From NCBI RefSeq assembly GCF_011045215.1, contig NZ_CP049201.1: a stretch of 64,000 nt of DNA. One strand, 5' to 3'. The number at the start of each line of letters is the position of its first letter. The stretch's first letter is position 1. The translations under genes were made by a program, and so were the position numbers. This stretch comes from Escherichia coli (GTDB taxonomy: Bacteria > Pseudomonadota > Gammaproteobacteria > Enterobacterales > Enterobacteriaceae). Below the pieces are notes generated by a model. That model was not told the origin of the DNA. It did no database searches and was given only the letters and a program-made list of their open reading frames with translations. This document shows, piece after piece, positions 31,232 through 31,629 of the stretch.

Positions 31232-31285
31232 TGGTATTCAGATTACATTTTGGTGAATACCATTTCAAGTCTTTTTTGGTATTCA
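31232..31285. promoter_or_regulatory. divergent promoter region with repeated GGTATTCA operators
   Basis: GGTATTCA at 31232 and 31278, inverted TGAATACC at 31253, between the leftward replication operon and rightward gene 31330. Confidence 0.5.
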
Positions 31286-31329
31286 CTTTTGTATTACACT
31301 GCATCCCGTTATTAATCGGAGGTGCAAAC

Positions 31330-31629
31330 ATGTCCACGAGTTCTGTTAACAATAAGTCACAGCAACTGAATGCCAGATTTCCACATGAAGTAGTGAGTGG
31401 CATTGAGGCATCCCTACAGCCAGGGGAAACTAAAGCGAATTTTATAGTTACGGCTGTGCGCGGTGAAATCGCCCGCCGCCAGGCAGAAGGAAGCGGAGAA
31501 AATCCCCTGGTTTCTTCGCTCGATGCGCTGGAACAAATGGAAAAAATAGGGGTCGAACTCGCCGAAAATATAGAGCAGCTTGTTTCCGTTGCTCGTGAAG
31601 AACTCCAGCGGCGCAAGGCCAAAGGGTAG
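31330..31629 (+). CDS. putative island regulator (about 100 aa), divergent from replication operon
   Basis: MSTSSVNNKSQQLNARFPHEVVSGIEASLQPGETKANFIVTAVRGEIARRQAEG... with GGAGGTG SD; protein-like composition. Confidence 0.5.
   Translation: MSTSSVNNKSQQLNARFPHEVVSGIEASLQPGETKANFIVTAVRGEIARRQAEGSGENPLVSSLDALEQMEKIGVELAENIEQLVSVAREELQRRKAKG

What the first reader, a model, noticed from the sequence alone, without database searches (positions are those of the whole stretch)
31232..31629. Divergent switch region with GGTATTCA operators and a small rightward regulator
Between the leftward replication operon and the rightward 100-aa gene lies a 200-bp region with three GGTATTCA copies, two direct and one inverted (forming GGTATTCA-N13-TGAATACC). 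This is the classic layout of a lysogeny/induction switch. The regulator has no Tyr and a coiled-coil-like C-terminus. It is the most likely repressor keeping the island quiescent.
Basis: partly seen in the sequence, partly recalled or inferred. Interest (0 to 1): 0.45.

Follow-up and report, generated by a model that had tools for sequence, protein, structure and literature searches.

The report
Satellite island repressor switch with antisense RNA
The repeats are real and are most likely the binding sites of a small Arc/Mnt-like repressor that, helped by a previously unnoticed antisense RNA, keeps the replication genes of an E. coli phage-satellite island switched off.

Summary
TGGTATTCA lies at 31232-40 (+), 31254-62 (inverted) and 31277-86 (+), in the 199-bp gap between an Icd-like/primase operon (leftward) and a 99-aa gene (rightward). 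The window carries a 12-kb EcCICFT073-type phage-inducible chromosomal island inserted in comM.

In 18 related islands the scaffold is conserved: four sites about 22-23 bp apart, bracketing a conserved leftward promoter and a rightward -10. The site words differ between islands and change together with the recognition-strand residues of this protein, not with AlpA.

Best reading: a Mnt/Arc-like repressor of the leftward promoter that also autoregulates.

A second layer was missed. A structured + strand RNA (31125-31197) is antisense to the ribosome site and start codon of the Icd-like gene, and it is reciprocally related to E. coli SymR.

"Master repressor" is only partly supported, because published work shows that AlpA overexpression alone induces EcCICFT073, which has the same module. 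I found no description of this module in the searchable literature. Binding and repression remain untested.

The parts
31232..31240 (+). Site O1, TGGTATTCA; overlaps the last base of the leftward -10 and the predicted leftward transcription start
   Evidence: position conserved at about -98 from the ATG in relatives
31254..31262 (-). Site O2, TGAATACCA on + (inverted copy); fills the spacer of the leftward promoter and abuts its -35
31277..31286 (+). Site O3, TGGTATTCAC; lies in the spacer/-35 area of the rightward promoter
31300..31308 (-). Site O4, degenerate (TGCATCCCG, 6/9), just after the rightward -10; relatives have a good fourth copy here
   Evidence: L012 has four copies at -98, -74, -53, -29
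31263..31268 (-). Leftward promoter P_L, -35 TTGAAA (TTGACA/TTGACG in relatives)
   Evidence: same position in 13 of 17 loci although the site words differ
31240..31245 (-). P_L -10 TAATCT, 17-nt spacer; predicted start near 31233
   Evidence: -10 at -85..-90 in 13 of 17 loci; the start site is inferred
31295..31300 (+). Rightward promoter P_R -10 TACACT (aligned with TATAAT/TATACT of relatives); no recognisable -35
   Evidence: alignment; one search shows no consistent -35/-10 pair, so this assignment is weaker
31330..31629 (+). 99-aa YlcI/YnfO-family gene: N-terminal ribbon-helix-helix domain (strand 10-18, helices 19-27 and 35-53) and a C-terminal long helix (59-98)
31699..31878 (+). 59-aa gene of unknown function in the rightward unit (phrog_21027); shares an LEQFLK motif with the 57-aa gene that follows the RHH gene in EcCICFT073
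32499..32537 (+). Terminator-like hairpin followed by a T run; probable end of the rightward unit
   Evidence: weak ctRNA_p42d match showing the hairpin; inference
31125..31197 (+). SymR-like structured RNA: two hairpins and a U-rich tail, antisense to the Shine-Dalgarno sequence and start codon of the Icd-like gene
31112..31117 (+). Candidate -10 (TATGCT) of the antisense RNA, 7 nt before its predicted 5' end
   Evidence: aligns with TAGAAT, 7 nt before the annotated K-12 symR start
30765..31130 (-). First leftward gene, 121 aa, with an Icd-like C-terminal domain
   Evidence: (NF033153, 80.6 bits)
28148..30772 (-). Rest of the leftward operon: two small ORFs, DUF4222, and a D5_N/DUF5906/Pox_D5 primase-helicase
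32551..35206 (-). Integration/activator side of the island: AntA/AntB-domain gene (32551-33351), alpA (33404-33592), integrase (33956-35206)

Best explanation
The region is the control region of the early/replication operon of an EcCICFT073-type phage-inducible chromosomal island inserted in comM.

Shown at the sequence or prediction level. A strong leftward sigma-70 promoter (-35 31268..31263, -10 31245..31240) drives the Icd-like gene and the primase operon. A weak rightward promoter drives a 99-aa YlcI/YnfO-family protein. The N-terminal domain of that protein is predicted to fold as an Arc/Mnt-type ribbon-helix-helix dimer, and its C-terminus is one long helix. Three perfect sites and one degenerate site (nTGGTATTCAC) lie 22-23 bp apart, which puts them on one face of the helix. 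They sit in the spacer and at the start of P_L, and around the -10 of P_R.

Inferred. Dimers of the protein insert their paired beta-strands (Q12, N14, R16, the Arc Q9/N11/R13 positions) into these sites. They block RNA polymerase at P_L and damp their own promoter, as P22 Mnt does. The C-terminal helix may link dimers bound two turns apart.

Second layer; structure and strand are shown, function is inferred. A ~73-nt RNA transcribed rightwards from inside the Icd-like gene pairs with the leader, the Shine-Dalgarno sequence and the start codon of any P_L transcript that escapes, as SymR does for symE.

Speculative. Induction overrides this double lock through AlpA, perhaps by leftward transcription from the alpA side running across the repressor gene into the operon.
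For: Island context: integrase, AlpA, AntA, DUF4222 and D5 primase are present, and comM is split at 35355-35561 and 21601-23001. The same gene order is annotated in E. coli ZF8-1 and in CFT073.

Protein:
- NF041551, 60.4 bits against a cut-off of 30.
- The fused-dimer AlphaFold model has pTM 0.75, with paired strands 10-18 followed by two helices.
- hhalign places residues 11-48 on 8-46 of an annotated Arc-family protein.
- The sequence shows the G-E-S/T turn and the invariant R16-x-P18.

Sites:
- Three copies, reached by 7 of 20000 simulations.
- Conserved positions at -98, -75, -53 and -30 in relatives.
- P_L hexamers are at the same place in 13 of 17 loci.

Specificity:
- Site words differ between islands and follow residues 12/14. 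QxN goes with G(G/C)(T/G)ATTCA, QxS with TGTGATTCA, LxT with GTGTGTTTCA (E. coli and Xenorhabdus/Photorhabdus), SxT with GTGTAAGACA, and QxG with GCGGTTCA.
- Jaccard index of self-repeated 7-mers is 0.29 for same-class pairs and 0.006 for different-class pairs, reached by 0 of 10000 permutations.
- AlpA type is uncoupled from the sites. The window's AlpA is 98% identical to that of EcCICFT073, which has other sites, and 31% identical to that of L001, which has identical sites.

RNA:
- Rfam symR, 37 bits, E 1e-4.
- 22 pairs, 10 of them with compensatory changes, 95.7% of cells paired against about 40% when partners are slid.
- 39 G-U and 0 A-C pairs; mean MFE -34.7 (+ strand) against -22.3 (- strand).
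- z-score -6.0 for the + strand against -1.8 for the - strand.
- A model built only from island sequences finds the annotated K-12 symR at E 1e-6.
Against: - No binding, expression or genetic data exist for any member of the family.
- The fold comes from an artificial single-chain construct and a shallow family (79 clusters). Pfam gives only sub-threshold matches, and there is no sequence match to a solved structure.
- Co-variation of sites and protein may partly reflect co-inheritance of one cassette, and the permutation test is not corrected for phylogeny.
- P_R has no recognisable -35, and O4 is degenerate in this window.
- A 22-23-bp spacing is unusual for ribbon-helix-helix repressors, which usually sit about one turn apart.
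- EcCICFT073 carries a short 59-aa form without the C-terminal helix.
- AlpA overexpression alone induces EcCICFT073 (PMC6092414), so this protein cannot be the only gate.
- The symR match is below Rfam's gathering score (37 against 61) and was not recovered in ten relatives in a larger search.
Confidence: 0.6

Rival explanations
1. The 99-aa protein is only an autoregulator of its own small operon. It would act like the ribbon-helix-helix antitoxin of a toxin-antitoxin pair, with the C-terminal helix neutralising a partner, and it would not control the leftward replication operon.
Against: The downstream 59-aa ORF has no toxin-family match and lies 70 nt away. Many relatives have no gene called directly downstream. 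The two best sites (O1, O2) bracket the -10 and spacer of the conserved leftward promoter, not P_R. Short forms without the C-terminal helix keep the same site layout.
Confidence: 0.1
2. The repeats are bound by another factor, such as AlpA, a helper-phage protein or a host protein. The YlcI-like protein would act elsewhere or have another role, for example near cos as in lambdoid prophages.
For: K-12 ylcI lies next to cos/nohD in DLP12, which is a different context. AlpA is the proven activator of EcCICFT073 genes (PMC6092414). No binding data exist.
Against: AlpA alleles are uncoupled from the site words. The site words track the N-terminal strand of the adjacent protein across genera. No further copies occur elsewhere in the island at up to one mismatch, apart from two isolated intragenic hits.
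Confidence: 0.08
3. The protein binds the repeats but acts after induction, as a Cro/Arc-like shut-off or a positive factor, rather than maintaining quiescence. Silence in the resting state would come from the lack of AlpA and from the antisense RNA.
For: AlpA overexpression suffices for induction of EcCICFT073 (PMC6092414). P_R looks weak (no -35). Arc in P22 is such a late shut-off (established knowledge).
Against: The gene is transcribed divergently from the operon it would control, like Mnt and unlike Arc, which sits inside the ant operon. P_L has a near-consensus -35 and an A-tract upstream, so it would need a repressor to be silent.
Confidence: 0.15
4. The three copies are a chance or compositional repeat with no function.
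For: Short words recur in AT-rich intergenic DNA, and the 8-mer is somewhat over-represented in the window as a whole (9 against 1.7 expected).
Against: Only 7 of 20000 simulations reach the observed repeat. The same four positions carry repeats, of different sequence, in 18 related loci from several genera.
Confidence: 0.01

Closest known systems
Phage P22 immI region: Mnt and Arc ribbon-helix-helix repressors at the divergent Pant/Pmnt promoters
   Different: It belongs to a different sequence family (YlcI/YnfO; no Pfam Arc hit). Sites are 22-23 bp apart instead of about 11. There are four sites spanning about 75 bp. The controlled operon is Icd-like plus replication genes of a satellite, not an antirepressor. 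Binding is untested.
E. coli K-12 symE/SymR (type I toxin-antitoxin-like cis-antisense pair; Rfam RF01809)
   Same: The RNA is related in sequence and structure in both directions. It is antisense to the Shine-Dalgarno sequence and start codon, with its 5' end 3 nt inside the coding sequence. A -10 hexamer lies 7 nt upstream at the aligned position. The target promoter also carries a protein repressor (LexA for symE, from annotation and established knowledge).
   Different: The target gene is Icd-like, not SymE. The score is below the Rfam gathering threshold (37 against 61). The protein repressor is a ribbon-helix-helix protein rather than LexA. Expression is untested.
Phage P1/P7 immI: c4 antisense RNA - icd - ant
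   Same: An icd-type gene is first in an operon, its translation is under antisense RNA control, and it gates downstream genes.
   Different: c4 is processed from the same transcript and acts on sites upstream of icd. No Rfam C4/isrK match was found here. The downstream genes here are replication genes.
SaPI Stl / Gram-positive PICI Rpr master repressors
   Same: The regulator gene sits between the integrase side and the replication operon, transcribed divergently from the latter. It occupies the equivalent map position (PMC6092414, Introduction).
   Different: Stl proteins are helix-turn-helix repressors removed by helper proteins. Here the fold is ribbon-helix-helix, an activator (AlpA) is required, and no anti-repressor is known. 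Many relatives lack the AntA/Bro gene.
Satellite phage P4 immunity (CI RNA, PLE/PLL, Vis/AlpA homologue)
   Same: An RNA-based lock on the leftward early/replication operon, and a late promoter upstream of the alpA homologue that reads through (PMC10111431).
   Different: P4 CI acts by transcription termination at seqA/seqC and is detected by the Rfam C4/isrK models, which do not match here. P4 has no ribbon-helix-helix repressor at PLE.

Membership tests
YlcI/YnfO family (NCBIfam NF041551) | HMM score above the curated cut-off (30 bits) | tested here: met
   60.4 bits, E 1.3e-16, residues 9-50. RefSeq names the homologues in ZF8-1 and CFT073 the same way.
Ribbon-helix-helix (Arc/MetJ/CopG) superfamily | Beta-alpha-alpha fold forming an intertwined dimer with a two-stranded antiparallel ribbon | tested here: met
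Ribbon-helix-helix (Arc/MetJ/CopG) superfamily | Sequence signature: alternating strand with a conserved basic residue before Pro, and a G-x-S/T/N turn capping helix 2 | tested here: met
   R16 is invariant, P18 nearly invariant, and G-E-S/T lies at 32-34.
Ribbon-helix-helix (Arc/MetJ/CopG) superfamily | Significant match to a curated RHH sequence family | tested here: not met
   No Pfam family at E<=0.01. Only sub-threshold PSK_trans_fac matches (best E 0.0011, below cut-off) in 21 of 30 members. hhalign against one Arc-family protein gives E 0.006, probability 5.9%.
Ribbon-helix-helix (Arc/MetJ/CopG) superfamily | Sequence-specific binding to repeated operator sites | not testable with these tools
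   Only indirect evidence: co-variation of site words with strand residues.
Gram-negative PICI, EcCICFT073 type | int - alpA - (Bro/Ant zone) - replication (primase) - late zone, 10-20 kb, no full set of virion genes, inserted at a specific site | tested here: met
   island about 23.0-35.35 kb, with comM split. Gene order is the same as EcCICFT073. AlpA is 98% identical.
Gram-negative PICI, EcCICFT073 type | Induction and packaging by a helper phage | not testable with these tools
   Shown for EcCICFT073 in PMC6092414, not for this island.
SymR RNA (Rfam RF01809) | Score at or above the gathering threshold (61 bits) | tested here: not met
   37 bits, E 1e-4 over 3 kb. No hit at the gathering threshold. 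Not recovered in ten relatives.
SymR RNA (Rfam RF01809) | Cis-antisense to the ribosome-binding site and start codon of the gene on the other strand, with two hairpins | tested here: met
   Coordinates 31125-31197 against the start codon at 31130..31128. Structure and strand are supported. Reciprocal hit to the annotated symR at E 1e-6.
SymR RNA (Rfam RF01809) | Expressed stable small RNA that lowers target translation | not testable with these tools
   -
PICI master repressor (Stl/Rpr-like role) | Loss of the gene derepresses the island; a helper product relieves repression | not testable with these tools
   Published data point to AlpA activation instead (PMC6092414). The authors state that a global repressor in Gram-negative PICIs is unclear.
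Type II toxin-antitoxin antitoxin | Adjacent cognate toxin gene | tested here: inconclusive
   The downstream 59-aa ORF has no toxin-family match. The neighbour varies or is absent in relatives.

The most novel reading that the evidence does not exclude
Gram-negative PICIs of the EcCICFT073 family may have a dedicated resting-state lock that has been overlooked. It would consist of an Arc/Mnt-like repressor of the uncharacterised YlcI/YnfO family, with interchangeable protein-strand/operator cassettes that act as 'immunity types' able to keep co-resident islands from cross-talk. It would work together with a SymR-type cis-antisense RNA on the Icd-like first gene. On this reading the chromosomal symE/SymR pair of K-12 shares ancestry with this mobile-element module.
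Probability: 0.4. Interest if true: 0.65.

Novelty: new member of a known kind. Interest (0 to 1): 0.5.

Why it matters
[quoted passage not shown] Later surveys describe integration, Bro, replication and late zones but not this module (PMC10111431, PMC11773190).

If this reading is right, it would do four things:
- It names a concrete, testable repressor-operator pair and an antisense RNA in front of the replication operon. Sequence from the queried 1.9-kb region recurs in 1299 of 5426 complete E. coli genomes, and the module is present in the model island EcCICFT073.
- It gives a first functional assignment (ribbon-helix-helix DNA binding) to the YlcI/YnfO family of the E. coli y-ome.
- It offers natural specificity variants for studying how a beta-ribbon reads DNA.
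- It links SymR to mobile elements.

The mechanism itself (a ribbon-helix-helix repressor on overlapping divergent promoters, plus a cis-antisense RNA) is of familiar kinds.

Tried and rejected
- Pfam on the protein found no family.
- A profile search of PDB sequences gave only spurious weak hits.
- Foldseek with the full-length monomer model was uninformative, because a lone RHH chain with a long helix is not compact. This prompted the fused-dimer construct.
- tblastn of the long and short forms against 50,697 isolated phage genomes found no match, so the family seems confined to prophages and satellites.
- The built-in promoter scan found nothing in the intergenic region. The promoters were instead placed by conservation. 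My first placement of the P_L -10 (TGTAAT, 15-nt spacer) was rejected for TAATCT at the conserved 17-nt position.
- AntA/Bro as the cognate anti-repressor was rejected as a general mechanism, because several related islands lack such a gene between alpA and the RHH gene.
- A LexA box was considered, as at symE. The window has CTG-N12-CAG at 31209-26, not CTG-N10-CAG.
- Rfam C4/isrK immunity RNAs, reported in some PICIs, were not found here.
- The symR model run on ten relatives in one 52-kb search gave no hit at E<=1, so the SymR link rests on the window hit plus the reciprocal model.
- Literature searches for YlcI/YnfO, SymR+Icd, PICI+ribbon-helix-helix and EcCICFT073+repressor found nothing on this module.

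Full report
Observation. GGTATTCA matches at 31233 (+), 31254 (-) and 31278 (+). Extended, they read TGGTATTCA (31232-40), TGAATACCA (31254-62) and TGGTATTCAC (31277-86), forming two overlapping perfect inverted repeats. They lie in the 199-bp gap between a leftward gene starting at 31130 and a rightward 99-aa gene at 31330-31629 that is preceded by GGAGG. A complex 9-mer occurring three times without overlap in 199 nt was reached by 7 of 20000 composition-matched simulations. In the whole window only six places show such a triple, and all six are inside the island. The protein has no Tyr, and residues 59-98 are predicted as one helix.

Context. The window is E. coli chromosome: an rrn operon, then ilvG at 36122. 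A roughly 12.3-kb element splits comM. The N-terminal ChlI fragment is at 35355-35561 and the rest is at 21601-23001. From right to left the element carries:
- an integrase, AlpA and an AntA/AntB-domain gene;
- the rightward small genes;
- leftwards, an Icd-like gene, two small ORFs, DUF4222 and a D5_N/DUF5906 primase;
- then ProQ/FinO-like and PerC-like genes.

This is the layout of Gram-negative phage-inducible chromosomal islands. Parts of the 1.9-kb region around the finding occur in 1299 of 5426 complete E. coli genomes. The model island EcCICFT073 has the same module, annotated 'YlcI/YnfO family protein' divergent from 'host cell division inhibitor Icd-like protein'. The window's AlpA is 98% identical to that of EcCICFT073.

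The protein. It has no Pfam family. It passes the NCBIfam YlcI_YnfO_N model (60.4 bits, cut-off 30) and matches phrog_6522, which has no known function. The family is small, with 79 clusters at 50% identity among 1.84 billion proteins. It has long forms (~100 aa) and short forms (~60 aa, including K-12 YlcI and the EcCICFT073 protein).

- The N-terminal 55 residues show a ribbon-helix-helix signature: an alternating strand ending in an invariant R16-x-P18, then a helix, a G-E-S/T turn and a second helix.
- A monomer model was uninformative.
- A single-chain fusion of two N-terminal domains, built with 42 diverse homologues, gave pTM 0.75 with paired strands 10-18 and two helices per copy.
- hhalign puts Q12/N14/R16 on the positions that in Arc are Q9/N11/R13. 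The identity of the Arc contact residues is from my own knowledge.

The fold assignment is a prediction from an artificial construct, but it is consistent across these lines of evidence.

The sites, compared across relatives. I collected 18 related loci: E. coli, Enterobacter, Serratia-like metagenome contigs, Raoultella, Cedecea, Photorhabdus, Xenorhabdus and 'Martelella alba', plus EcCICFT073. The region upstream of the gene has a conserved scaffold with variable inserts.

- Four sites lie at about -98, -75, -53 and -30 from the ATG, in alternating orientation and 22-23 bp apart.
- A leftward sigma-70 promoter has its -35 (TTGACA, TTGACG, or TTGAAA here) between sites 2 and 3, and its -10 between sites 1 and 2. 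This is the best leftward match, at the same position, in 13 of 17 loci.
- A T-run follows.
- A TATAAT-like hexamer lies between sites 3 and 4.

In the window this gives P_L -35 at 31268..31263 and -10 TAATCT at 31245..31240, with O2 filling the spacer and O1 on the predicted start. It gives P_R -10 TACACT at 31295-31300, with O3 upstream and a degenerate O4 (6/9) downstream. P_R has no recognisable -35, so its assignment is weaker.

The site words themselves differ between islands and follow the recognition strand:

| Strand residues | Site word | Loci |
|---|---|---|
| Q-x-N | G(G/C)(T/G)ATTCA | window, L001, L018 |
| Q-x-G | GCGGTTCA | L020 |
| Q-x-S | TGTGATTCA | L012 |
| L-x-T | GTGTGTTTCA | E. 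coli; Xenorhabdus/Photorhabdus |
| S-x-T | GTGTAAGACA | E. coli; Enterobacter |
| A-x-A | GTGTGCAACA | L016 |
| A-x-K | GTGGCCCAC | EcCICFT073 |

In the L-x-T class the spacers between sites have diverged while the words are kept. Sets of self-repeated 7-mers overlap for loci of the same class (Jaccard 0.29) and hardly at all otherwise (0.006), a difference reached by 0 of 10000 label permutations. This test is not corrected for relatedness. The flanks (Icd-like start, C-terminal helix) recombine independently of the strand-plus-site cassette. For example, P0009 joins another N-terminal class to the window's C-terminus.

A second layer. An Rfam scan of 3 kb gave a full-length match to SymR at 31125-31197 (+), 37 bits, E 1e-4, below the gathering score of 61. 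This stretch is antisense to the Shine-Dalgarno sequence and start codon of the Icd-like gene and begins 3 nt inside the coding sequence, as SymR does at symE.

- Across 18 loci it folds into two hairpins with 22 pairs. Ten pairs show compensatory changes, and 95.7% of cells are paired against about 40% when partners are slid.
- The structure belongs to the + strand: 39 G-U and no A-C pairs, mean MFE -34.7 against -22.3 kcal/mol, and z-score -6.0 against -1.8 in the window.
- A covariance model built only from the island sequences finds the annotated symR of K-12 end to end (36.6 bits, E 1e-6 in 140 kb) and the EcCICFT073 copy (59 bits).
- A -10-like hexamer (TATGCT here; TATGAT, TACTAT or TAGACT in relatives) sits 7 nt before the predicted 5' end. 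It aligns with TAGAAT before the annotated symR start.
- The symR model did not reach E<=1 in ten relatives in a larger search. I therefore call this SymR-like, not a member of the Rfam family.

Mechanism.
- Shown at the level of sequence, structure prediction and comparison: promoter positions, site positions, the fold, co-variation, and the RNA's structure and strand.
- Inferred: dimers of the protein occupy O1-O3 (and O4 weakly), occlude P_L and damp P_R, as Mnt does at Pant/Pmnt in P22. The C-terminal helix of the long form may bridge dimers two turns apart. The antisense RNA blocks translation of the Icd-like gene from any escaping transcript, as SymR does for symE and, more loosely, as c4 does for icd in P1.
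- Speculative: AlpA-driven leftward transcription from the alpA side crosses the repressor gene and enters the operon on induction.

In EcCICFT073, AlpA is an activator that is required for transfer. Its overexpression alone causes excision and uncontrolled replication, and the authors state that a global repressor in Gram-negative PICIs is unclear (PMC6092414). So this module is best seen as a resting-state lock that AlpA overrides, not as the single switch.

Rivals. An antitoxin-like autoregulator is unlikely. No toxin is recognisable, the downstream neighbour varies, and the best sites sit on P_L. Binding by another factor is unlikely given. A post-induction shut-off role remains possible. 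Chance is excluded by the comparative data.

Novelty. Ribbon-helix-helix repressors on divergent promoters and cis-antisense RNAs are both familiar. I found no account of this module in PICIs, of any function for YlcI/YnfO, or of SymR relatives in satellites. These searches cover open-access papers and bioRxiv only. I rate it a new member of a known kind, of moderate interest, with clear experiments available.

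Noticed in passing
window 31125-31197 (+), with a candidate -10 at 31112-31117: A SymR-like structured RNA lies antisense to the translation start of the Icd-like gene. It is conserved with compensatory changes in 18 related islands and is reciprocally related to the annotated K-12 symR.
   Followed up: yes
window 21601-23001 (-) and 35355-35561 (-): comM (yifB) is split by the island, which puts the island ends at about 23.0 and 35.35 kb. The att repeats were not mapped.
   Followed up: partly
window 27828-28113: A cluster of GGTAGATA/TATCTACC repeats lies directly after the primase stop codon (28148). These are likely replication-origin iterons of the island.
   Followed up: no
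window 27099-27425: Four copies of (C)CCCACTTTT(T) are spaced 83-141 bp apart, between the ProQ-like gene and a 115-aa ORF. Their function is unknown.
   Followed up: no
window 23599-23861: Six copies of TTGACACTTT lie 46-82 bp apart (most about 55 bp), each followed by related sequence, near the left end of the island upstream of a 175-aa gene with a weak HTH_17 match. They may be a regulator array or a packaging site.
   Followed up: no
window 31209-31226: The near-palindrome CTGAATTGCATGTATCAG (CTG-N12-CAG) lies in the P_L leader. It occupies the place where K-12 symE has the palindrome CTGTATATATCATCAG (CTG-N10-CAG), which I read as a LexA-type SOS box. It also resembles a weak fifth site (TGAATTGCA, 7/9) 22 bp from O1. 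It is present only in the window and L001.
   Followed up: partly
window 32499-32537 (+): A GC-rich hairpin with a T run lies between the rightward small genes and the end of the AntA gene. It is probably the terminator of the rightward unit and looks weaker on the other strand.
   Followed up: no
window 8885, 10773, 12631, 13666, 14888, 38855: Six further isolated copies of GGTATTCA lie in chromosomal genes outside the island, more than the 1.7 copies expected for the whole window. There is no clustering and no obvious meaning.
   Followed up: no
L023 12474-12653 (EcCICFT073, NC_004431.1 1380473-1380652): The model island carries a short 59-aa form of the protein, ending in a basic tail instead of the long helix. 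Its sites are GGTGTGGCCCAC (two copies, 23 bp apart). N-terminal classes and C-termini are shuffled among homologues (for example P0009).
   Followed up: partly
L025 4252-4446 and upstream (K-12 DLP12 ylcI): K-12 ylcI lies divergent from nohD, with the cos region between them. It has an inverted repeat TCAATTA-N18-TAATTGA about 76-108 nt upstream. This is a different context for the same family.
   Followed up: no
L002 1907-2049 (+): A strong Rfam isrN match (152.7 bits) occurs inside the related island of the 'Martelella alba' record. That record's gene content looks enterobacterial.
   Followed up: no
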